From assembly GCA_021534775.1 (NCBI GenBank), contig GCA_021534775.1_4809.1: DNA of 30,283 nucleotides; one strand, 5' to 3'. The translations under genes and the position numbers were made by a program. Below are positions 1-8,140 of this stretch, piece after piece. The stretch is from a phage. How positions within the stretch are numbered: the first letter of the stretch is position 1; each line of letters opens with the position of its first letter. Under the pieces are notes generated by a model that worked only from the letters and a program-made list of their open reading frames with translations, was not told where the DNA came from and made no database searches.

Positions 1-1628
1 TTCGTCCACAAGGTTCAACGCCGCTGGCTGGCGACCCAGTAAACGATTATGATGCCACAACAAAGCGTTGGGTGGAAAACTTAGTCAACACTGGCACTGT
101 CGGCCCAAGCATGAACGGTGTTATGAACTATGGCGTAGGTGATTTTCACCTTCGAAATGGTCGCTCATACATCCAGCCGTATGAAGTCGTTGCAGATGGT
201 CAACTATTAAACCGTGCCGATTGGCCTGAACTTTGGGCATATGCACAAATGCTTTCTCCCATCGCAGATGCCGATTGGCTTGCTGATAAGTTCAAACGTG
301 CGAAGTATTCTTTGGGCAACGGCACAACCACTTTCCGTGTACCAGACCTGAACGGTGTGCAAACAGGTTCTGTACGGGCGCTGTACGGGCGCGGCGACGG
401 CGGCAACTCGACTGCGAACGGACAAATATTTGAATCCGCTGCACCAAACATAACAGGTTCAGCTGCAGGCGTATCGGCAGGCACTTATGCGCAAATTTTT
501 GGCACAGCCGTCCGAGGTGCTTTTTACACAAACAACGATTTGTATCCTCAAGGCGCTGGAGACACAATACCCGTTGGAAGCGGCGCAGTAGAGGGGCGTT
601 TAAATACAATCAACATTGATGCATCACGCTCAAGTCCAATCTATGGCGCGGCAACAGATGAAATCATGGGCCGTAACTTTGTAGGCGTTTGGGTGATTCG
701 TGCATCGGGTGGATTTGTTGCCGCGAATACGTCTTGGAGTGTTATAAATGGCGATGGCACAAGGCCGCCTGGCGGGACGAGAGTTGAATCAGGGAAAGTA
801 AGCGTTGAATACAAGATTGGAACTGCCATCGAAGCGCAAGGAACGGTTTACACATCAGCAACGATGGGTGGGTCATATTCCACCCAGTTATCAGTAAAAA
901 ACGTCACTGCAGGTAAAGAAAAAGACATCAGCTTGACTGATGACGGTCTATTATGGTCTGACCGATTTGCGGCACGGTACGGAACGTTGATGTCATGGGC
1001 TGAGACGGGCTCAAAGTCAGGCACCTTCTCGATGACGAGACAGGCGCTTGGTCAAAACTATGGTTTCAACAGCCTTATCAGCGGTAGTCAATCTGTTAAT
1101 ACAGGATACGCAACTACTGTTCACCATGGCATGATCCACAACAACAATGGAAGTTTTGCGCAAGCTACGTGGATTGCTTCTGGTGATGATGATGCAAAGT
1201 ATCAAACAAAGATGCAAATCCAGCCTAACGTAGAGGATGTATTCTTTTCAGTATCCGTTCCAGGTTCTGACAGCTTCTTTACTCTTCAAAAGAATGCCAT
1301 CTCTGATGAGAATTTGAAGCATGACATACAACCAGGAACGGTTGAAAAAGCATGGCGCAACCTTTCATCACTGAATTATGTAACGTTCATATACAACAAT
1401 GATGAAAAGGAAAGGATAAGAAGGGGCATTATCGCTCAACAGGCAGAGATTATTGACCCGTTGTATGTTAAGACGATTAAATTCTATCCTAGTGAAGGTG
1501 TCGAAGTTGAACAAAAACAACTTGACACGACACCTATGCTTTTGGATACGATGCACGTGGTGCAGGAGTTGATGAAAAAGGTCGAGTCACTAGAGGCAGA
1601 GATAGCCGCGCTGAAAGCAGCAAAATAA
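1..1628 (+). CDS. Tail fibre protein, 5'-partial, with C-terminal S74-like intramolecular chaperone domain
   Basis: Reading frame is open from nt 3 to the stop at 1626-1628; the ORF-track start at 72 is a GTG, so the true start is upstream of the window. Gly/Ser/Thr/Asn-rich fibre-like segments (GRGDGGNSTANG, GSAAGVSAGTYAQIFG). C-terminal ISDENLKHDIQP...YVTFIYNNDEKERIRRGIIAQQAEIIDP resembles the SDxRLKxNI autocleavage signature of endosialidase/L-shaped tail fibre chaperone domains. Confidence 0.75.
   Translation, partial: RPQGSTPLAGDPVNDYDATTKRWVENLVNTGTVGPSMNGVMNYGVGDFHLRNGRSYIQPYEVVADGQLLNRADWPELWAYAQMLSPIADADWLADKFKRAKYSLGNGTTTFRVPDLNGVQTGSVRALYGRGDGGNSTANGQIFESAAPNITGSAAGVSAGTYAQIFGTAVRGAFYTNNDLYPQGAGDTIPVGSGAVEGRLNTINIDASRSSPIYGAATDEIMGRNFVGVWVIRASGGFVAANTSWSVINGDGTRPPGGTRVESGKVSVEYKIGTAIEAQGTVYTSATMGGSYSTQLSVKNVTAGKEKDISLTDDGLLWSDRFAARYGTLMSWAETGSKSGTFSMTRQALGQNYGFNSLISGSQSVNTGYATTVHHGMIHNNNGSFAQATWIASGDDDAKYQTKMQIQPNVEDVFFSVSVPGSDSFFTLQKNAISDENLKHDIQPGTVEKAWRNLSSLNYVTFIYNNDEKERIRRGIIAQQAEIIDPLYVKTIKFYPSEGVEVEQKQLDTTPMLLDTMHVVQELMKKVESLEAEIAALKAAK
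1302..1628 (+). other. Predicted autocleaved intramolecular chaperone domain of the tail fibre (domain-level annotation)
   Basis: Ser codon of SDENLK at 1302-1304, followed by about 108 aa with a coiled-coil-like tail (VESLEAEIAALKAAK). Confidence 0.5.
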
Positions 1629-1635
1629 TTCACTC

Positions 1636-1664
1636 AAGGCGCTGAAAAGCGCCTTTACTTTATG
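1636..1664 (+). terminator. Putative intrinsic terminator after tail fibre gene
   Basis: Inverted repeat aaggcgc / gcgcctt with a 6-nt loop, followed by a T-rich tract (tactttat). Confidence 0.45.
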
Positions 1665-1709
1665 CGCTATTAAGTTATACTCATTATACGTTAACAAGTG
1701 AGGTGATTT

Positions 1710-1997
1710 ATGAAATTTGAAGATATTGATAAAGCTCAGAAAGCAAAGGCTCTTCCAAAATACTTAATTTGCGGAATCGACCCTGCAGACAAACGCCTTG
1801 TCTTTTTGAAAGCCGTTACAGGCGATGAACATGGCAATGCAGTTGATTGGAGTATCCCGCTCTTTGAGACAAAGGGAGAAGCCGAACAGGCATTGTTAGA
1901 AAGCAAGATGCCTTCGCACTACAAAGTCAGGACTCAAGATGAAATTCCAACCTTGATTTTGGACAACATTAACAGCGGAGAAGGCTCTAATGGATAA
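1710..1997 (+). CDS. Hypothetical protein (95 aa)
   Basis: ORF with strong RBS (gtgaggtga) 5 nt upstream of ATG. Confidence 0.6.
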   Translation: MKFEDIDKAQKAKALPKYLICGIDPADKRLVFLKAVTGDEHGNAVDWSIPLFETKGEAEQALLESKMPSHYKVRTQDEIPTLILDNINSGEGSNG

Positions 1998-2088
1998 AGA
2001 GGCGCGACGCTTTGCATTTTGGGGCACGGTTTGTATTGTCGCCCTGTTTGGAATCGTTTACGCAATCATCCACGCTGCTGCGGCATGA
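1990..2088 (+). CDS. Possible small hydrophobic peptide (32 aa, MDKEARRFAFWGTVCIVALFGIVYAIIHAAAA)
   Basis: Short ORF below the track threshold, start overlapping the stop of the upstream gene; one predicted TM helix. Could be spurious. Confidence 0.25.
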   Translation: MDKEARRFAFWGTVCIVALFGIVYAIIHAAAA

Positions 2089-2091
2089 ATT

Positions 2092-2487
2092 ATGATCATC
2101 GATATTGAAAAGGCTCTCAAGCGCGAATTAACGCCAGGTGCGACTCCTGGTGAGGAAGCCTACTACCGACCGAAAGCGCAGCGCACCAATGAGATTCCGG
2201 TCGTTAAGCGGACAGTGAATAAGAATGGTCAGCGGTCGCGACCGCGCTCTATCCGGTCCGGTGAAAGGCTGAAAACGATTCGCCAGTGTCTACAACGGCT
2301 CGAAATCATGGGTTGTCGCGCTTATATCGACCCTGATGGAAAGGTCATGGTGAGAATTGGCAATAGTACACAACTACAAGACGGATTACCTTGCGGCGAA
2401 TCCAGACCCATAGCAAAGACCGACCGTGTGGCTACTGGCCGCGAGATTGAGGAAAGTTGGTTGGGTGCTTTCTTATTAAAATATTGA
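2092..2487 (+). CDS. Hypothetical protein (131 aa)
   Basis: ORF in the same orientation as the late operon; no recognisable motif. Confidence 0.55.
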   Translation: MIIDIEKALKRELTPGATPGEEAYYRPKAQRTNEIPVVKRTVNKNGQRSRPRSIRSGERLKTIRQCLQRLEIMGCRAYIDPDGKVMVRIGNSTQLQDGLPCGESRPIAKTDRVATGREIEESWLGAFLLKY

Positions 2488-2494
2488 GGTTAAC

Positions 2495-2743
2495 ATGAAT
2501 CAAAATGAATCAGTAGCATTCTTACAATGGCTGGAAGGTGTGGTGGAGTATTACGCTCCAAAAGACCGCTTCACCTTTCAAGGTAAAAGCTTCAAGCGCA
2601 AAGGCCAAGCTCAGAAAGCAGCTCGTAAATACTGGAAAGAAGTTTATTCAGAATTTTTCTCTCAGATGGGTATCATCGGCTCAACGGTATCCGGCGACCC
2701 TGCGCAATTGGTATCGATTGATGAATCCAATCGTCACAATTAA
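2495..2743 (+). CDS. Hypothetical protein (82 aa)
   Basis: ORF with RBS (tgagg) upstream of ATG. Confidence 0.55.
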   Translation: MNQNESVAFLQWLEGVVEYYAPKDRFTFQGKSFKRKGQAQKAARKYWKEVYSEFFSQMGIIGSTVSGDPAQLVSIDESNRHN

Positions 2744-2818
2744 TAAATCGATTTGAATGCCGTGCTATGCGGCTTTATTATAGTTATTGTTAATCACCCA
2801 AATATTAAAGGTAATGAT

Positions 2819-3199
2819 ATGTCAAATAAAAATGATTCTATGAGCCATACTTACACTAAAGGCAGCGGCACTGCTTTTGGTTCCAGCATCAAAATTGACG
2901 CTCCACCTTGCTATTCTGATGGATTGGAAGTTGGCAACCGTGACTTGACTTGGGTTTTACGTCGCCAATCCGATTTAGAAGAGAAGTTGGAAAATATTGC
3001 GCGTTCTCTTGAAAGTCTGCGCGACCAGCTTTTTGGTTGTTCTGAAGATGATTCTAAATCTCCAGAGTATTGTGTTAATCACGGTTTGATTGATAATATG
3101 CTCGCCATAACCGCTCGATCAATTGGTAAAACTGTGTCCATTGAGTCGTTGATCAGCCAGATTGCGGACGGCTTTGGTGATGCCCATAAGAGTGAATAG
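2819..3199 (+). CDS. Hypothetical protein (126 aa; ORF-track start 2753 is probably too far upstream)
   Basis: Internal in-frame ATG at 2819 preceded by aaagg; the N-terminal 22 codons of the track ORF are hydrophobic read-through of the intergenic region. Confidence 0.5.
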   Translation: MSNKNDSMSHTYTKGSGTAFGSSIKIDAPPCYSDGLEVGNRDLTWVLRRQSDLEEKLENIARSLESLRDQLFGCSEDDSKSPEYCVNHGLIDNMLAITARSIGKTVSIESLISQIADGFGDAHKSE

Positions 3200-3229
3200 T
3201 GGGTGGATGTTGCTTTAACCGTGAATCGT

Positions 3230-3256
3230 GGGTCGCTTAGGGCGGCCCTTTATTTT
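3230..3256 (+). terminator. Intrinsic terminator ending the plus-strand late operon
   Basis: Stem gggtcgc / gcggccc (one G-U pair), 5-nt loop, then tttatttt. Confidence 0.55.
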
Positions 3257-3842
3257 GCCTGCCGCGCAGGAGTGTACTGCAAATTTCCTGTGGGTACAAA
3301 ATAGTACGGTACTGTCTAGGACTTTTTCTTTGAAAAGTTAGTGGACCAAATGTGTCGTATTTTTGATTAGTGTACCGCAAATTCCATCAAGTAGCAAAAC
3401 GCACCAAAAGACCCATGCCATAAAAACCACACGAACGCAATAATCAATCGACGTTACAGTTTCCAGCGTTACAATTCGAAAGCGAATGATTCGACGCATA
3501 ATAATATGAAGCATAATGATTCGAAAGCGAGTGATTGCGTGTAGGATAATATCGGTGGGGATTATTCTAGATGCATGTAATTTCGCATGCGTACTATTTT
3601 CGGACGAAGGGTCGGCATATTCCTCGTTTTAGTTCGGAACGAAGGGAAAGTTTTGCGCCTTTATAAAACAACGACTTACGCGACCCGCCTTAACGGTCCG
3701 ATATAGGTGTCTATATAAAACAAGGACTTACGCGATGTTCTCCATTTAACGTAATACCTGTTATGCGAACTAAGGCGCATCTCGACGAAGATTATGCGAC
3801 GACGAAGGGAAGGATAAAGGAGTTTTCGCGGAGAAGCGCATC
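3257..3842. repeat. Repeat-rich non-coding region between convergent terminators
   Basis: No ORF of 60 aa or more on either strand. Direct repeats of gacgaaggg at 3603, 3638 and 3801; attcgaaagcga(a/g)tgatt twice (about 3474 and 3520); GTAC-containing motifs gtactgcaaattt (3274) and gtaccgcaaatt (3372). Confidence 0.6.
3662..3735. repeat. Pair of 22-bp direct repeats TATAAAACAA(C/G)GACTTACGCGA
   Basis: Copies at 3662-3683 and 3714-3735 with one mismatch, 52 bp apart. Confidence 0.7.
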
Positions 3843-3872
3843 GAGATAGGGGCGAAGAAAAGCCGCGACTAA
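3843..3872 (-). terminator. Intrinsic terminator for minus-strand gene 3900-4190
   Basis: On the minus strand: GCCGCG cttagt CGCGGC followed by ttttcttcg. Confidence 0.55.
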
Positions 3873-3899
3873 GCGCGGCCTATTAGTAACGGAAGGATA

Positions 3900-4190
3900 T
3901 TATAAGGAGACAATTTTAAAATAAGTTACTTCGCCGCCGAGTTGCGGTACAGCGAGATATTCGCCGCCGATTTCGGTAATCGTATAGACGAAGCCGTTAA
4001 TCGTTACGCGGGATGATACGATGTCCTCGTCGCGATACTTGTAAAGGTCGAGGAAGTTGATCGGCTCATAAATAGGTTCGATAGTTGCGTCTACGTTAGA
4101 GAGATAAACGCTCTCTAAGGTTTCGCCAAATACGTTAGAGTTTTCGGAAGTCTCGACGCGAGCGGAACGGATAGCGGCTAAAGTAATCAT
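3900..4190 (-). CDS. Small acidic protein (96 aa), hypothetical
   Basis: ORF with RBS aggag 7 nt upstream of ATG in the conserved context ccaactaggagattattATG; about 14 Asp/Glu versus 6 Lys/Arg. Confidence 0.65.
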   Translation of the reverse strand: MITLAAIRSARVETSENSNVFGETLESVYLSNVDATIEPIYEPINFLDLYKYRDEDIVSSRVTINGFVYTITEIGGEYLAVPQLGGEVTYFKIVSL

Positions 4191-4214
4191 AATAATCTCC
4201 TAGTTGGTCGGGCG

Positions 4215-4235
4215 GGTAGCGACCTATTCGCTACC
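4215..4235 (-). promoter_or_regulatory. 5'UTR stem-loop with conserved AAUAGGU loop (copy 1)
   Basis: Arms ggtagcg / cgctacc around a 7-nt loop, between the promoter and RBS of gene 3900-4190. Confidence 0.5.
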
Positions 4236-4257
4236 TCATCCCCTCTCGATATAAAAC

Positions 4258-4286
4258 ATTATAGTCTTAGTGTACGAAGAAGTAAA
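4258..4286 (-). promoter_or_regulatory. Sigma70-like promoter for gene 3900-4190
   Basis: Minus strand reads TTTACT, 17-nt spacer, TATAAT. Confidence 0.55.
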
Positions 4287-4297
4287 GCACTTTTTCG

Positions 4298-4600
4298 TTA
4301 TTCTGCAATAAAATATTTATAAGCCTTATCGCCTTCTACGTCGATATACTCGACGATAATTAACGCTTCGCCGCGCGGCGTAACCGTCTCGATAAGGGTA
4401 ACGGCTTCGTCGTCGGTCTTCGCGAAGCGGATGGCGCTACGTTCGGCGTACTTAATATCGTCGAAGGAAAGGCCGATGAAGGCGACCGCGCGGACCTTAA
4501 TGGCGCTAGATTCTAGTTCCGCGTTAACGGCGGCGATAAGAGAGCGAACGGTTAAGCGGTCTTCGTCGTAAGTAAGGATGGAAGAGATTAAAGTAGTCAT
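4298..4600 (-). CDS. Small acidic protein (100 aa), hypothetical; ORF-track start 4657 rejected
   Basis: Internal ATG (MTTLISS) preceded by gggag 7 nt upstream; the promoter -10 overlaps the track ATG at 4657, so the transcript starts downstream of it. Confidence 0.6.
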   Translation of the reverse strand: MTTLISSILTYDEDRLTVRSLIAAVNAELESSAIKVRAVAFIGLSFDDIKYAERSAIRFAKTDDEAVTLIETVTPRGEALIIVEYIDVEGDKAYKYFIAE

Positions 4601-4656
4601 AATAAAGCTCCCGATGCTAGTAGAAGAAAGGGCCATCGCCCGTCTCGATATAAACA

Positions 4657-4684
4657 AGTATACGCGAGTGTACGAAGAAGTAAA
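4657..4684 (-). promoter_or_regulatory. Sigma70-like promoter for gene 4298-4600
   Basis: Minus strand reads TTTACT, 16-nt spacer, TATACT; the upstream part (ctttacttcttcgtacact) is nearly identical to the promoter at 4258-4286. Confidence 0.5.
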
Positions 4685-4728
4685 GAAAAAAGATAAAATA
4701 ATTTATCGCATTTTTATCGAAAAAGTGC

Positions 4729-4756
4729 TTTACTTTTTTCTACACTATATTATAAT
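4729..4756 (+). promoter_or_regulatory. Sigma70-like promoter for gene 4825-5139
   Basis: TTTACT, 16-nt spacer, TATAAT. Confidence 0.55.
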
Positions 4757-4779
4757 GTACTCATATCGGGACGGGATGA

Positions 4780-4800
4780 GTTAACGAATAGGTCGTTAAC
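4780..4800 (+). promoter_or_regulatory. 5'UTR stem-loop with conserved AAUAGGU loop (copy 2)
   Basis: Arms gttaacg / cgttaac around the same 7-nt loop aataggt; the stem sequence differs from copy 1 but stays complementary. Confidence 0.5.
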
Positions 4801-4824
4801 GCCTCTCCCAACTAGGAGTTTATT

Positions 4825-5139
4825 ATGGCTATCGTTACCCGCTTTACCCTCGAAAACGCAACCGCCGAAGTCCAGGGCGTTACGCTTACTTACGGCGAAA
4901 TTCTCGCGAAATTCTCCGGCGTTCGCTTAGGCGAAGAAATTAACGACGCGACGGTAATCGAGCAACTCGCTGCTTCTCGCTTAGAGCGCGACGAAAACGG
5001 ATTCTTCGAAGTCGATGCGGAATTAAATTTATGCGGTAAAACGGCGTTTATTAACGAGTTCGAACTCGCCGTTTTAGTTAATTACGATAGCAAAGCTTAC
5101 GCCTTCGCCCTCGAATTAATCGAAGACGACGAAGAGTAA
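4825..5139 (+). CDS. Small strongly acidic protein (104 aa), hypothetical
   Basis: RBS in the context ccaactaggagtttattATG; about 22 Asp/Glu versus 7 Lys/Arg; C-terminus ELIEDDEE. Confidence 0.7.
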   Translation: MAIVTRFTLENATAEVQGVTLTYGEILAKFSGVRLGEEINDATVIEQLAASRLERDENGFFEVDAELNLCGKTAFINEFELAVLVNYDSKAYAFALELIEDDEE

Positions 5140-5219
5140 GAGAGGATTTTTAGAGCGTCGTGCGCGGCGCTTTAATAAAATTCTTTCGCGCCTAGCGCCC
5201 TAACAAATAGGAGTTTATT

Positions 5220-5846
5220 ATGGTTAGCTTAAATCGCTTTTCTACTAGCGGCGACGTTATCGCAACTAAGACCGCCGACCTCGTTGCATTCTATAATGCA
5301 AATTCCGGCTCAAAACCGATTAAGAAGTTTGCGGACCGCCGGACCGCCGAGACTCGCGTAATCGCGTTAATCGAGTCCTTAAACGCGCTCGATGAGCCGT
5401 CCAACGAATCGCCCATCCCCGACGCGAAGCCGCGCGAGGAAGTGTCCAGCGATGTAAAAACGCATAAGGCGCGTGCGGTCGTTAAAAAGGCCGAGCCGAC
5501 GCAGGAAGAACTCGACGCGATGACCGACGAAGAGTATGAAGCCTTCGTTAAGAGCGGTTTAAACGATAGTGCAAATTGCGTAGTGCAAAATGGAACTCCT
5601 TCCCATCGCCGTTCGAATAGCGAAGGCATTGCAAAAAGTTGGGATAATAAGGAAGTGGCGCAAAAGCGTCTTACCCGTAACGGCGTTATGGTCGAGGGTG
5701 TAGGCGAGTTCAAATCGGTCCGCGTAGCGTTCGCCGCGCTGGGCTTACCGGATAGCAAGCACATTCGCTTCCGCATGAAGCTTAAAGAAGCTGGACGCTT
5801 GAACTTCGAGTTCGGCAACAAGTCCTATACCTTCCAGATTATCTAA
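5220..5846 (+). CDS. Hypothetical protein (208 aa)
   Basis: Same RBS context aataggagtttattATG; contains two tandem ATAGTGCAAA motif copies at 5566-5591. Confidence 0.55.
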   Translation: MVSLNRFSTSGDVIATKTADLVAFYNANSGSKPIKKFADRRTAETRVIALIESLNALDEPSNESPIPDAKPREEVSSDVKTHKARAVVKKAEPTQEELDAMTDEEYEAFVKSGLNDSANCVVQNGTPSHRRSNSEGIAKSWDNKEVAQKRLTRNGVMVEGVGEFKSVRVAFAALGLPDSKHIRFRMKLKEAGRLNFEFGNKSYTFQII

Positions 5847-5852
5847 TCGAAT

Positions 5853-5876
5853 GGCGGCCCTTCGGGGTCGCTTTTC
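5853..5876 (+). terminator. Intrinsic terminator with UUCG tetraloop
   Basis: gcggccc ttcg gggtcgc followed by tttt. Confidence 0.6.
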
Positions 5877-5896
5877 ATAGTGCAAATTGGTGGCTT

Positions 5897-6160
5897 ATGA
5901 ATACGCTCATTCTCATCGCTACGTTGTCCATCGGAAGTGGTCGCACCTTATCCCTTTACGACCATAGTGCAAATTGTGCTTATCCTACGCGAGTTGCGGC
6001 AATAGTTAATAGTGCAAATCGAATGCTATTCGAGACTTGTTGGCGGGTCGATAACGAGAAAGGGCGCATCGTCTTAGGTTATAGTGCGAATCTGCTGGTG
6101 GAGTCGTTCGATTGGACGGTTGAAGGTCGTAAATTGTTACGTAAAGTGACTAAAAGATGA
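5897..6160 (+). CDS. Questionable ORF (87 aa)
   Basis: Short RBS spacing (ggtgg, 3 nt). Three in-frame motif copies translate as HSAN, NSAN and YSAN, so the frame may be a by-product of the DNA motif array. Confidence 0.3.
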   Translation: MNTLILIATLSIGSGRTLSLYDHSANCAYPTRVAAIVNSANRMLFETCWRVDNEKGRIVLGYSANLLVESFDWTVEGRKLLRKVTKR

Positions 6161-6274
6161 CTTATAATAATACACTTTCTAACGCGTTTATGGTTGTAAC
6201 CTTCCCCGTCGTATTACCGATGGCCCTAGAAGTGGAGAAAATGTGTTCCAGGGCCGTTTTATAGTGCAAATTGG

Positions 6275-6763
6275 CTAGTGGCGGGAGAATTGCTCACCTT
6301 CTTTGGCCGCCTCTCCAAAATCCTTGTAGAAATCGTCCATGGAACGGCCCATTTTACTATTGCCGTTTTCATCAATCATCGTGATGCCGTAGATGATATT
6401 CAGTTCACGAATAGCATTAAGCTTGGCTGACGCCGCGACTTCTGGATCACGCACAAGCTTGACCAAATTGTGAATTGCACCTTTTACGCTCCACAAATCC
6501 TTGAGTGGCATCTCTTCCATACGCTTTTTGAAGCGCATCTTGTAGTATGGATTGCGTTGCGTGCAAAGGATTCGCTGGCCAGTGTAGTTATCCGTTGCAA
6601 CTTCCATTCCAAATACTAGTGCAAAAGCTGCGCGCATGTCATGACCCTGAATAACAAGGTCAATGAACTCATCGAATAAAGCCTGATTGTGCTCTGCGAA
6701 TCGCGGGTCTTCAAAGTCTTCAGGCATCGCTACATAATCTTGACTCATAGTGCAAAATCCCAT
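6275..6763 (-). CDS. Hypothetical protein (162 aa; start may be 6748)
   Basis: Minus-strand ORF. Both candidate ATGs are created by the motif (the reverse complement of CAT in cATAGTGCAAAT). Confidence 0.55.
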   Translation of the reverse strand: MGFCTMSQDYVAMPEDFEDPRFAEHNQALFDEFIDLVIQGHDMRAAFALVFGMEVATDNYTGQRILCTQRNPYYKMRFKKRMEEMPLKDLWSVKGAIHNLVKLVRDPEVAASAKLNAIRELNIIYGITMIDENGNSKMGRSMDDFYKDFGEAAKEGEQFSRH

Positions 6764-6783
6764 AGTGCAAATTAATAGTGTGA

Positions 6784-6812
6784 ATTATACAATGGATGAA
6801 CATTATATTCAA
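6784..6812 (-). promoter_or_regulatory. Sigma70-like promoter for gene 6275-6763
   Basis: Minus strand reads TTGAAT, 17-nt spacer, TATAAT; the -10 and 5'UTR overlap the three tandem motif copies. Confidence 0.5.
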
Positions 6813-6976
6813 GTGCAGATTGATGTTCATTATGGCTATAAACGTACACAAATCATAATGCTGCGTGGATTGCGGACCGTGGTGCGTGGTGTACTGTTTG
6901 ATACGTATAAAAGAAATCCATCCCTTTCGCCGCTTGTTATGCAAATCAATGACTTAGCCGCTGCTGGCTGGTTGAA

Positions 6977-7341
6977 GCGTATCATGACGTATCATCCGTA
7001 TTGCCGCAAGTCTTTGTTTTTACTTATATCTTACGGATGATACGTTAAATATATAAATTAACATAAGTATGAGGATATGAAAAAAATTAATATAAATGTT
7101 TTTAAAATGGAGTTAATTAATTTTTCGAATTCTATATATAACGATGCTCAGTTTTATCCGTATCATCCGTAAGATTAATGTACAAGCCAGGCGCGGCAAG
7201 GGCTGTACACTCTTACGGATAGAAAACCATGACGTATCATGACGTAAGGGTGTACCACTTTTGAAAATAGGAATCCAGGAACGGCGCGGCCTGCGGCCAT
7301 GATACGCTTAATTTTTAACCGTATTTTAGGCGTATCAAATG
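6977..7341. repeat. Cluster of direct and inverted repeats flanking an AT-rich core
   Basis: Perfect 15-bp inverted repeat cttacggatgatacg (7030-7044) / cgtatcatccgtaag (7159-7173) around an AT-rich segment of about 110 bp. Further copies at 6987-7000 and 7212-7249; GC-rich islets ccaggcgcggcaagggctg and ccaggaacggcgcggcctgcggcc. Confidence 0.65.
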
Positions 7342-7606
7342 TGTTCAAAACCACGTTTCACGACCCAAGAAAATCCAATCCATAGATAGAATCTAACAAA
7401 CACCACGGACCAATAGCCATACACTATTAAAATATTAACAATCCTGTTTATATATATTTCTAAATATTTCCGCACAATTAATAAATAAAACATCACCTCA
7501 TAATTATTCCATCGCAAAACACGACCCAAACGACAAAAGGCCGCATAAAGCGACCCATTGCACACATTCCATTCTTCGAAACACGTAAACGAGTGTTCTT
7601 TATCCG

Positions 7607-8140
7607 CTACAATTTAGGCATAAATCCTTTGTCAGTCCGCCTTTTTATCTCTCCCTCTATCATTTTATTTGTGACTCTATAACCAATCCTTTCCAATTCC
7701 AGCAACACTTCCTTTTGGTATTTCTTTATTTTCACAATATCAACTGTGTCCCTCCAATAAGAAAATACCTTTTGAATTATTTTTTCATCCATTTTATATC
7801 TTGCAGTCGTCCTGTATTTCATTTTAAATATAGAGTTGATTGCGTCAGTCTTCAACCACTCGCCTCTCAACTCAGGGTGATCATCCCAAAGAGCTATGGC
7901 AAACTCTTGCGGGCTTTTACATCTTTTTCTAAGCTCAATTATATAGTCGACCGTTTTCGTTTTATTATCCAACCTTTCGCGGCAAACTGTGCACTCTTCC
8001 TTGAGCAGCCAGTCAACCTTGTTACTTCGCGACGTTGATTCACCATCCCTTCTGTACCTACCGCAAATGCTTATGCCTTCATTATCCAAGAAGTAATGCA
8101 AGTCTTTAGAGTATTTCGCTTTACGCCAAAAGCCGCCCAT
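7607..8140 (-). CDS. Hypothetical protein (177 aa), AT-rich composition
   Basis: Strong RBS aaggaggg; TGATG stop/start overlap with the upstream gene; Cys pairs (CGRY...CTVC) suggest possible zinc binding. Confidence 0.55.
   Translation of the reverse strand: MGGFWRKAKYSKDLHYFLDNEGISICGRYRRDGESTSRSNKVDWLLKEECTVCRERLDNKTKTVDYIIELRKRCKSPQEFAIALWDDHPELRGEWLKTDAINSIFKMKYRTTARYKMDEKIIQKVFSYWRDTVDIVKIKKYQKEVLLELERIGYRVTNKMIEGEIKRRTDKGFMPKL

What the first reader, a model, noticed from the sequence alone, without database searches (positions are those of the whole stretch)
3900..5139. Three promoter-proximal small acidic proteins: candidate DNA-mimic or anti-defence early genes
Genes 3900-4190, 4298-4600 and 4825-5139 each have their own sigma70-like promoter, are about 100 aa, and are strongly acidic (roughly net -8, -7 and -15 by my count). 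They lie just past a repeat-rich non-coding region that follows the late operon. That layout resembles a genome-end early region with Ocr-like small acidic anti-restriction proteins. This is inference from composition and position only.
Basis: inference. Interest (0 to 1): 0.55.

Follow-up and report, generated by a model that had tools for sequence, protein, structure and literature searches.

The report
Acidic early genes in terminal repeat
Three small acidic proteins of unknown function, each with its own strong host-type promoter, sit inside the terminal repeat of an E. coli Wifcevirus phage; they are good but unproven candidates for the unexplained restriction resistance of these phages, and they are not relatives of Ocr.

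Summary
The ORFs are 3900-4190(-), 4298-4600(-) and 4825-5139(+). They encode 96, 100 and 104 aa with net charge -8, -7 and -15. Each has a strong Shine-Dalgarno site and its own sigma70-like promoter.

New findings:
- The window is a Wifcevirus, an E. coli myovirus. All three genes lie inside its ~3.8-kb direct terminal repeat (window ~3325-7108), so the genome-end guess is right.
- The three promoters share a 17-nt box, TTTACTTnTTCGTACAC. It occurs nowhere else in a complete 68.7-kb genome and is kept in three distant metagenomic relatives.
- A and B are in 29/29 Wifcevirus records and recur as an adjacent, always-acidic pair in those relatives.
- C fills a swappable slot: this gene in 11 records, a 94-aa paralogue of A in 12, nothing in 6.
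- C is the most acidic protein of the proteome (1/111). A and B rank 7 and 12.
- None has a Pfam or PDB sequence match, and only sub-threshold PHROG matches. A confident model of A (pLDDT 90) has no structural neighbour among solved structures.

Membership of Ocr or ArdA is therefore rejected. An anti-defence or host-takeover role remains plausible, and published data show these phages resist restriction without a known mechanism, but it is untested.

The parts
3325..7108 (.). Direct terminal repeat (DTR) of the phage genome, collapsed to one copy in this window. It contains genes A, B, C, D, E and a TerS-like gene.
   Evidence: WFC record positions 1-3784 equal 68689-72472 at 100% identity and map to window 7108-3325. 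Mansfield carries a PhageTerm-annotated DTR of 3673 bp, which maps to window ~3406-7108.
3900..4190 (-). Gene A: 96 aa, net charge -8, pI 4.23.
   Evidence: ORF and charge. Present in 29/29 Wifcevirus records. dN/dS 0.13-0.38. AF2 model has pLDDT 90.4 and a mixed alpha/beta fold with no PDB neighbour. Distant homologues P0041, P0042 and one in L101.
4197..4201 (-). Shine-Dalgarno AGGAG of gene A.
   Evidence: Upstream sequence.
4191..4257 (-). 5' UTR of A with a stable hairpin (stem GGUAGCG/CGCUACC, loop AAUAGGU).
   Evidence: Fold of -19.9 kcal/mol, z = -2.0. It is 82% identical to the 5' UTR of C, with two compensatory stem changes (I1).
4258..4286 (-). Promoter P_A: TTTACT-17 nt-TATAAT, inside the box TTTACTTCTTCGTACAC.
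3860..3881 (-). Intrinsic terminator after gene A (GCCGCG-CTTAGT-CGCGGC followed by TTTTCTT).
   Evidence: Sequence. The homologous site is annotated as a terminator in WFC and Mansfield.
4298..4600 (-). Gene B: 100 aa, net charge -7, pI 4.55.
   Evidence: Present in 29/29 records. dN/dS 0.08-0.30. Distant homologues of 122-125 aa with net charge -14 to -21 lie next to A-like genes in L009, L011 and L101.
4657..4684 (-). Promoter P_B: TTTACT-16 nt-TATACT, with the same 17-nt box.
4729..4756 (+). Promoter P_C: TTTACT-16 nt-TATAAT, divergent from P_B. It drives C-D (and possibly E).
   Evidence: The intergenic region is 97% conserved in 7 phages. It is fused directly to D where C is absent.
4757..4824 (+). 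5' UTR of C with a hairpin (GUUAACG/CGUUAAC, the same loop as in A) and SD AGGAG.
   Evidence: -19.9 kcal/mol, z = -1.96; I1.
4825..5139 (+). Gene C (allele C1): 104 aa, net charge -15, pI 4.07. It is an accessory cassette in a promoter-proximal slot.
   Evidence: Most acidic of 111 proteins. Present in 11/29 records. Replaced by C2, a paralogue of A, in 12 records. Absent in 6 records, 4 of which were inspected directly. AF2 model unusable at pLDDT 45.
5220..5846 (+). Gene D: 208 aa, basic (pI 8.9), downstream of C in the same transcription unit. Context only, not part of the claim.
   Evidence: PHROG 4730, unknown function. dN/dS 0.02-0.12. Detected by MS in phage preparations (PMC7048862).
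3200..3899 (.). Repeat-rich non-coding region holding the inner DTR boundary (~3325-3406) and the late-operon terminator (3230-3248).

Best explanation
**What they are.** A, B and C are probable immediate-early genes of a Wifcevirus. They lie in the ~3.8-kb direct terminal repeat, so a copy sits at each end of the virion DNA.

**How they are expressed.** Each mRNA begins with a 5' hairpin and carries a strong Shine-Dalgarno site.

**What the products do (inferred, not shown).**
- They are small, soluble, acidic, non-enzymatic globular proteins.
- I infer that they act stoichiometrically by binding host proteins in the first minutes of infection.
- The most likely targets are DNA-binding defence or repair nucleases (restriction enzymes, RecBCD) or nucleoid/transcription proteins.
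- A and B form a conserved core pair.
- C occupies a swap-in/swap-out slot directly behind the rightward early promoter. It is the best candidate for a charge-based (DNA-competitive) inhibitor.

**What they are not.** They are three unrelated, uncharacterised families (A/C2, B, C1), not members of Ocr, ArdA or any other known anti-restriction family.

**Shown versus inferred.** Shown here: position, promoters, conservation, composition, lack of homology. Inferred: early timing and the host-protein-binding or anti-defence function.
For: **Position.** The genes lie within the DTR.

**Promoters.**
- Three sites match the consensus at 9-10 of 12 positions.
- They share the box TTTACTTnTTCGTACAC. 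At up to 1 mismatch it occurs exactly three times in the complete Bas101 genome, all at A, B and C.
- The box is conserved in L009, L011 and L101, whose proteins are only 26-38% identical.
- No phage RNA polymerase is annotated, so early transcription must use the host enzyme.

**Leaders.** The 5' UTRs carry hairpins with compensatory changes between A and C.

**Real, constrained genes.** dN/dS is 0.08-0.38. A and B are in 29/29 records.

**Conserved acidity.** The A family ranges from -8 to -13, the B family from -7 to -21 and C1 from -15 to -16 across lineages. The neighbouring E-like protein flips sign, from +5 to -5.

**C.** It is the most acidic of 111 proteins.

**Conflict-type evolution.**
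- The C slot holds C1, C2 or nothing, behind an invariant promoter and UTR.
- Gene A is a mosaic. Codons 1-23 and the flanks are 96-100% identical to WFC, while codons 24-96 have saturated dS.

**Not virion proteins.** A and B were not detected by MS in two Wifcevirus preparations (PMC7048862).

[quoted passage not shown] Yet the genome keeps 15 EcoRI, 7 EcoRV and 7 EcoKI sites.
Against: - No expression-timing data exist for any Wifcevirus.
- No homology or fold links any of the three to a known inhibitor.
- A (14.6% D+E) and B (18%) are only moderately acidic, ranking 7 and 12 of 111. Several other small proteins of the phage are as acidic.
- The four BASEL isolates carry different A and C alleles (A1/C1, A2/C1, A1/C2) but are reported with essentially the same defence-resistance profile. 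The alleles therefore do not visibly determine sensitivity to the tested systems.
- Resistance to type II enzymes is more usually due to DNA modification than to a protein inhibitor (own knowledge).
- The conserved promoter spacer hints at extra regulation that I cannot explain.
Confidence: 0.4

Rival explanations
1. Strict version of the first reader's idea. One or more of A, B and C is a double-stranded-DNA mimic of the Ocr/ArdA type that blocks type I (and other) restriction enzymes by occupying their DNA-binding groove.
For: - C has 21% D+E, net charge -15 and pI 4.07, with an acidic C-terminal tail (DDEE), and is the most acidic protein of the proteome.
- Like T7 gene 0.3, the genes sit at the genome end behind strong host promoters.
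- The phage resists EcoKI and other RM systems without a known mechanism (PMC11990801).
- Ocr needs far fewer than its 34 acidic residues for activity (PMC3439906).
Against: - No sequence match to any Pfam family or PDB chain.
- The confident model of A is a compact alpha/beta domain unlike any solved DNA mimic.
- Charge density is one third to one half that of Ocr (-0.07 to -0.14 against -0.24 per residue).
- C is missing from 18 of 29 genomes. Two BASEL isolates that lack C1 (Bas99 and Bas100, which carry C2) are just as RM-resistant.
- The model of C is unusable (pLDDT 45), so its surface could not be examined.
Confidence: 0.12
2. Host-takeover proteins rather than anti-defence proteins. 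On this view they inhibit or redirect host RNA polymerase, the replication, division or nucleoid proteins, supporting the very short infection cycle. Acidity would then reflect binding to basic surfaces of those proteins.
For: - The position and promoter evidence is the same as for the best explanation.
- A and B are core genes, kept as a pair in four lineages. That fits a housekeeping takeover role better than a strain-specific counter-defence.
- Wifceviruses are reported to complete development in about 10 min or less (PMC7048862; PMC11990801).
- Terminal-repeat-encoded takeover modules are known in T5 and SPO1 (own knowledge).
Against: - Nothing links them to a specific host target.
- Mosaic alleles of A and the swappable C slot are more typical of arms-race loci than of takeover functions aimed at conserved host machinery.
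Confidence: 0.3
3. Phage-internal role. On this view they are acidic partners, chaperones or regulators of phage proteins encoded next to them: the basic D protein, the TerS-like protein, or an early-to-middle transcription switch acting at the conserved promoter box.
For: - D (pI 8.9) and E are basic and co-located, and a TerS-like gene lies in the same repeat.
- The conserved promoter spacer and the upstream CGAAAAAGTG motif suggest a dedicated regulator.
- A and B always travel with D, E and the TerS-like gene in the relatives.
Against: - Acidic proteins are poor candidates for DNA-binding regulators.
- C can be absent or replaced without loss of D, E or the TerS-like gene.
- There is no evidence of any interaction.
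Confidence: 0.15
4. The ORFs are not functional genes, and the acidity is a by-product of composition.
For: None beyond the lack of annotation ('hypothetical protein' in all records).
Against: - Strong SD sites and dedicated conserved promoters.
- dN/dS well below 1.
- Homologues at 26-38% identity keep length, synteny and charge.
- A confident fold prediction for A.
Confidence: 0.02

Closest known systems
T7 Ocr (gp0.3), the archetypal phage DNA-mimic anti-restriction protein
   Same: - Small (116 aa) and acidic.
- Encoded at the genome end that enters first.
- Transcribed by host RNA polymerase from strong early promoters.
- The phage resists type I restriction.
   Different: - No sequence similarity.
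- Ocr is an all-helical elongated dimer with 34 acidic and 6 basic residues, net -28 (PMC3439906). A is a compact alpha/beta domain with no PDB neighbour.
- A, B and C carry -8, -7 and -15.
- Anti-restriction activity is untested here.
Pre-early/first-step-transfer genes in the terminal repeat of phage T5, and the host-takeover module in the terminal redundancy of Bacillus phage SPO1
   Same: - Clusters of small, mostly orphan genes inside a long direct terminal repeat.
- Each or most behind strong host-type promoters.
- Acting first in infection against host functions and defences.
   Different: - The repeat here is much shorter (3.8 kb against ~10-13 kb) and holds only about 6-7 genes.
- No homologous proteins.
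- Two-step DNA transfer or early timing has not been shown for Wifcevirus.
Small acidic nuclease inhibitors of linear-genome phages: T7 gp5.9 and lambda Gam (RecBCD inhibitors), T4 Arn (own knowledge)
   Same: Small, acidic, early proteins that protect incoming linear DNA by competing with DNA for a host nuclease or DNA-binding protein. This is a plausible need for a phage with exposed terminal repeats.
   Different: - No sequence match to any PDB chain.
- No fold match for A.
- Target unknown.
Uncharacterised protein A0A513QBN4 of Shigella phage MK-13 (Agtrevirus, Ackermannviridae)
   Same: It is the only non-Wifcevirus structural neighbour of the A model in BFVD: TM 0.61-0.62, probability 0.99, 93 aa.
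   Different: - 17% identity and Foldseek E = 0.12.
- Function also unknown.
- Its genomic context was not examined.

Membership tests
Ocr (T7 gp0.3) family | Sequence homology to gp0.3 (Pfam Ocr model or PDB chains of Ocr). | tested here: not met
   No Pfam hit for B or C, and only a sub-threshold unrelated hit for A. phmmer against all PDB chains at E <= 10 gives nothing relevant. Family profiles A5 and A6 also give nothing.
Ocr (T7 gp0.3) family | All-helical, elongated, bent-DNA-shaped dimer fold. | tested here: not met
Ocr (T7 gp0.3) family | Extreme charge: 34 acidic and 6 basic residues in 116 aa (-0.24 per residue). | tested here: not met
   A -0.083, B -0.070, C -0.144 per residue. 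Ocr figures from PMC3439906.
Ocr (T7 gp0.3) family | Inhibition of type I restriction-modification enzymes. | not testable with these tools
   Needs plating or binding assays.
ArdA anti-restriction family | Sequence homology to ArdA (Pfam model or PDB chain). | tested here: not met
   No hit.
DNA-mimic proteins (functional class, not a homology family) | Small size, high D+E content and low pI. | tested here: inconclusive
   C: 21% D+E, pI 4.07, rank 1/111. B: 18%, pI 4.55. A: 14.6%, pI 4.23. Met for C, borderline for B, weak for A. Acidity is conserved in distant homologues.
DNA-mimic proteins (functional class, not a homology family) | Surface carboxylates arranged like the phosphates of B-DNA, and competitive binding to a DNA-binding protein. 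| not testable with these tools
Terminal-repeat-encoded early gene module (T5 pre-early / SPO1 host-takeover type) | Genes located inside a long direct terminal repeat. | tested here: met
   WFC's 3784-bp repeat, 100% identical at both ends, maps to window 3325-7108. PhageTerm annotation in Mansfield.
Terminal-repeat-encoded early gene module (T5 pre-early / SPO1 host-takeover type) | Individual strong host-RNA-polymerase promoters in front of small orphan genes. | tested here: met
   Three sigma70-type sites with a shared box unique in the genome and conserved in relatives. No phage RNA polymerase is annotated. Promoter activity itself was not measured.
Terminal-repeat-encoded early gene module (T5 pre-early / SPO1 host-takeover type) | Expression in the first minutes of infection. 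| not testable with these tools
   No transcriptome or time-course for any Wifcevirus was found in the literature searches.

The most novel reading that the evidence does not exclude
The conserved A-B pair is a new, fold-novel two-protein anti-restriction/anti-nuclease module, with C1/C2 as exchangeable add-ons. Expressed from the terminal repeat immediately on DNA entry, it would account for the unexplained insensitivity of Wifcevirus phages to type I, II and III restriction and other defences. The conserved promoter box would be the operator of a dedicated early-gene switch.
Probability: 0.15. Interest if true: 0.7.

Novelty: new member of a known kind. Interest (0 to 1): 0.4.

Why it matters
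The BASEL study reports that Wifcevirus phages resist every tested restriction and defence system except EcoP1_I, with no known genome-protection mechanism. Development is also reported complete within about 10 minutes, one study putting adsorption to progeny release at only 3-5 minutes.

This analysis narrows the search for the cause to a handful of genes. These genes are physically at the genome ends, have a private promoter class, are conserved as an acidic pair across distant relatives, and include a swappable slot. That makes the question directly testable with three deletions or three expression plasmids.

If any of them is an inhibitor, it would be a new family, because A has no structural neighbour among solved proteins.

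If none is, the result is an ordinary set of orphan early genes.

Tried and rejected
1. **Paralogy of A, B and C.** BLASTP, hhalign on shallow profiles and on enriched profiles give no significant link. Only C2, the alternative cassette in Mansfield-type phages, is clearly a paralogue of A (E 1e-5; shuffle z 8-11). C1-C2 is marginal (z 3.4, 8/1000 shuffles). I treat the three as separate families.

2. **Word-indexed protein searches.** A, B and C found only Wifcevirus proteins at >= 65% identity.

3. **Exhaustive HMMER with the A profile.** Over 1.84 billion representatives it found just two distant clusters.

4. **IMG/VR scans.** The A and B profiles found only Wifcevirus contigs.

5. **Metagenome scan for the 17-nt promoter box.** It returned mostly chance hits. 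Only L060, L062, L119 (Wifcevirus) and L101 (a new relative) were real.

6. **Structure prediction of C.** The model from 4 sequences failed (pLDDT 45), so no fold search of C was done.

7. **Fold libraries.** afdb50 was unavailable.

8. **Rfam.** No RNA family in 3000-7700.

9. **Virion component or structural role.** Rejected as unlikely. The promoters are host-type and sit in the terminal repeat, and A and B were not seen in MS of phage preparations.

10. **The longer 119-aa form of B (TTG at 4657).** Rejected, because it starts inside its own -10 hexamer and homologues are 100 aa.
Full report
**What the window is.** A 3-kb stretch around the finding matches 29 phage records at 90-98% identity, all Wifcevirus (E. 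coli/Shigella myoviruses of 66-72 kb). The best match is Bas101 at 97.8%. In every record the three genes are 'hypothetical protein'.

**The observation.**
- The ORFs are at the stated coordinates. A is 3900-4190 and B is 4298-4600, both on the minus strand. C is 4825-5139 on the plus strand.
- Lengths are 96, 100 and 104 aa. Net charges are -8, -7 and -15. pI values are 4.23, 4.55 and 4.07.
- Each start codon follows an AGGAG or GGGAG by 5-6 nt.
- A consensus scan finds three promoters:
  - TTTACT-17-TATAAT for A (4286-4258, minus strand).
  - TTTACT-16-TATACT for B (4684-4657, minus strand).
  - TTTACT-16-TATAAT for C (4729-4756, plus strand).
- The region 3200-3899 is non-coding and repetitive. 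It follows the tail-fibre operon and its terminator.

**The promoters form a class of their own.**
- The three share a 17-nt box, TTTACTTCTTCGTACAC in P_A and P_B. P_C differs at three positions and fits the degenerate search pattern with 1 mismatch.
- In the complete 68.7-kb Bas101 genome the box occurs three times at up to 1 mismatch, all at these genes.
- It is retained, with an upstream CGAAAAAGTG motif and a TATCG(A/G)GA start region, in three metagenomic relatives whose proteins are only 26-38% identical.
- The B-C intergenic region is 97% identical across seven phages.
- The 5' UTRs of A and C are 82% identical over 65 nt. They fold into the same hairpin with two compensatory stem changes. 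B and the distant relatives carry different hairpins at the same place.
- No phage RNA polymerase is annotated.
- I infer host-polymerase early promoters with stabilising 5' hairpins.
- The conserved spacer is unusual for sigma70 promoters and suggests an overlapping operator. I could not explain it.

**Position: inside the direct terminal repeat.**
- WFC's record carries 3784 bp identical at both ends. These map to window 7108-3325.
- Mansfield has a PhageTerm-annotated 3673-bp repeat covering the same genes.
- The repeat holds A, B, C, a basic 208-aa protein D, an 87-aa protein E and a TerS-like gene.
Timing has not been measured for any Wifcevirus.

**Are they genes, and how unusual is the charge?**
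- dN/dS against six relatives is 0.13-0.38 for A and 0.08-0.30 for B. For D and E it is 0.02-0.12.
- Among the 111 annotated Bas101 proteins, C ranks first for negative charge per residue and for pI. A ranks 7th (3rd by pI) and B ranks 12th.
- Only C is exceptional within the proteome.

**Distribution.**
- A and B are in 29/29 records.
- C is in 11 records.
- Twelve records carry a different 94-aa gene, C2 (net charge -12), at the same site.
- Six records match neither cassette; in the four inspected directly the same promoter and UTR are fused directly to D.
- C2 is a paralogue of A: 32% identity, E 1e-5, shuffle z 8-11.
- C1 against C2 is marginal (z 3.4). B is unrelated to either. Profile-profile tests add nothing.
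- Gene A itself is a mosaic. Against WFC, codons 1-23 differ by 1 nt and the flanks are 96-97% identical. Codons 24-96 have saturated synonymous divergence, and the proteins are 66% identical.

**Distant relatives.**
- Word-indexed searches found only Wifcevirus proteins.
- An exhaustive HMMER search with the A profile found two further clusters, P0041 and P0042.
- Their contigs (L009, L011) and a third (L101) show the same neighbourhood: TerS-like gene, E-like gene, D-like gene, divergent promoter, an A-like gene, then a B-like gene of 122-125 aa.
- Gene order is A then B in these relatives, and B then A in Wifcevirus.
- Every member is acidic. The A family runs from -8 to -13, the B family from -7 to -21 and C1 from -15 to -16.
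- The neighbouring E-like protein changes sign, from +5 to -5.
- Negative charge is thus a conserved property of A and B, and they behave as a pair.

**Comparison with known families.**
- No Pfam hit reaches threshold, and PHROG matches are only sub-threshold (E 0.05-0.09).
- No PDB chain matches by sequence or by family profile.
- A model of A built from ten sequences, including the distant homologues, is confident (pLDDT 90.4, pTM 0.79). It is a compact domain of three short helices and seven strands.
- In BFVD, apart from its own orthologue, the only neighbour is an uncharacterised Agtrevirus protein (TM 0.61).
- The model of C failed (pLDDT 45).
- Ocr has 34 acidic and 6 basic residues in 116 aa (PMC3439906), about two to three times the charge density seen here.
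- Membership of Ocr or ArdA is rejected. 'Works like a DNA mimic' remains open, mainly for C.

**Biological context.**
[quoted passage not shown] EcoP1_I is the exception (PMC11990801).
- The Bas101 genome still has 15 EcoRI, 7 EcoRV and 7 EcoKI sites, about two-fold depleted. GATC is 2.5-fold depleted.
- Something active is therefore needed, either a protein inhibitor or a DNA modification.
- Against a simple allele-phenotype link: Bas98 (A2, C1), Bas99 and Bas100 (A1, C2) and Bas101 (A1, C1) are described with the same profile.
- Mass spectrometry of two Wifcevirus preparations detected D but not A or B (PMC7048862). This argues against a virion role.

**Verdict.**
- These are real, probably immediate-early genes in the terminal repeat. 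They have a private promoter class and encode orphan acidic proteins.
- A and B form a conserved core pair. C is an exchangeable cassette and the only compositionally strong DNA-mimic candidate.
- My estimates:

| Explanation | Probability |
|---|---|
| Binding and neutralisation of host DNA-binding defence or repair proteins | ~0.4 |
| General host takeover | ~0.3 |
| Strict Ocr-type mimicry | ~0.12 |
| Phage-internal role | ~0.15 |

- The kind of thing (terminal-repeat early module of small orphan proteins) is well known. The families are new and uncharacterised, and A's fold has no solved relative.
- Interest is moderate. It rests on the link to an explicitly unexplained restriction-resistance phenotype that three deletions could test.

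Noticed in passing
window 5566-6785: The motif ATAGTGCAAAT (core of TTTnATAGTGCAAATTGG) occurs six times: at the 3' end of D, just upstream of and inside E, and at both ends of the TerS-like gene (6275-6763). It could be a protein-binding array, for example for packaging recognition or for regulating E and TerS.
   Followed up: no
window 6897-7340: Many direct and inverted copies of CGTATCAT(C/G)/TGATACG straddle the outer boundary of the terminal repeat (~7108). They are candidate terminase or replication recognition sites.
   Followed up: no
window 4258-4300, 4657-4700, 4715-4756; L009, L011, L101: The early promoters have a conserved spacer (TTCGTACAC) and a conserved upstream CGAAAAAGTG motif in four lineages. 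Neither is expected for a plain sigma70 promoter. This suggests an operator for a dedicated regulator, possibly the basic protein D.
   Followed up: partly
window 3900-4190 compared with L002:3700-3990: Gene A is a recombination mosaic. The first 23 codons and both flanks are nearly identical to WFC, while codons 24-96 are saturated at synonymous sites. Two old alleles are circulating in otherwise 95%-identical genomes.
   Followed up: yes
window 4578-4784 (+): A 68-aa ORF, annotated in Bas101 as Bas101_0097 (171 nt), lies entirely on the divergent P_B/P_C promoter region. It is probably not a gene.
   Followed up: no
window 5220-5846 (+): Protein D is 208 aa and basic, belongs to PHROG 4730 (unknown function) and is under strong constraint (dN/dS 0.02-0.12). 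It is conserved in all relatives and was detected by mass spectrometry in a vB_Eco4M-7 preparation (as vB_Eco4M-7_19).
   Followed up: partly
window 6275-6763 (-): A 162-aa protein annotated in Mansfield as the terminase small subunit (HHpred to Sf6 TerS) is encoded inside the terminal repeat. Here it gives only a weak PHROG TerS match (E 0.099).
   Followed up: no
Bas101 whole genome (L021 + L022): GATC is strongly depleted (113 observed, 277 expected). EcoRI and EcoRV sites are about two-fold depleted but still present (15 and 7).
   Followed up: partly
BFVD entry A0A513QBN4 (Shigella phage MK-13, Agtrevirus): This uncharacterised 93-aa protein shares the predicted fold of A (TM 0.61, probability 0.99, 17% identity). 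It may be a remote relative in an unrelated phage family.
   Followed up: no
L009 1346-1957: The distant relative carrying the A-like/B-like pair also encodes a Macro-domain protein (weak Pfam hit) among its small early-region genes. This is a domain often tied to ADP-ribosylation conflicts.
   Followed up: no
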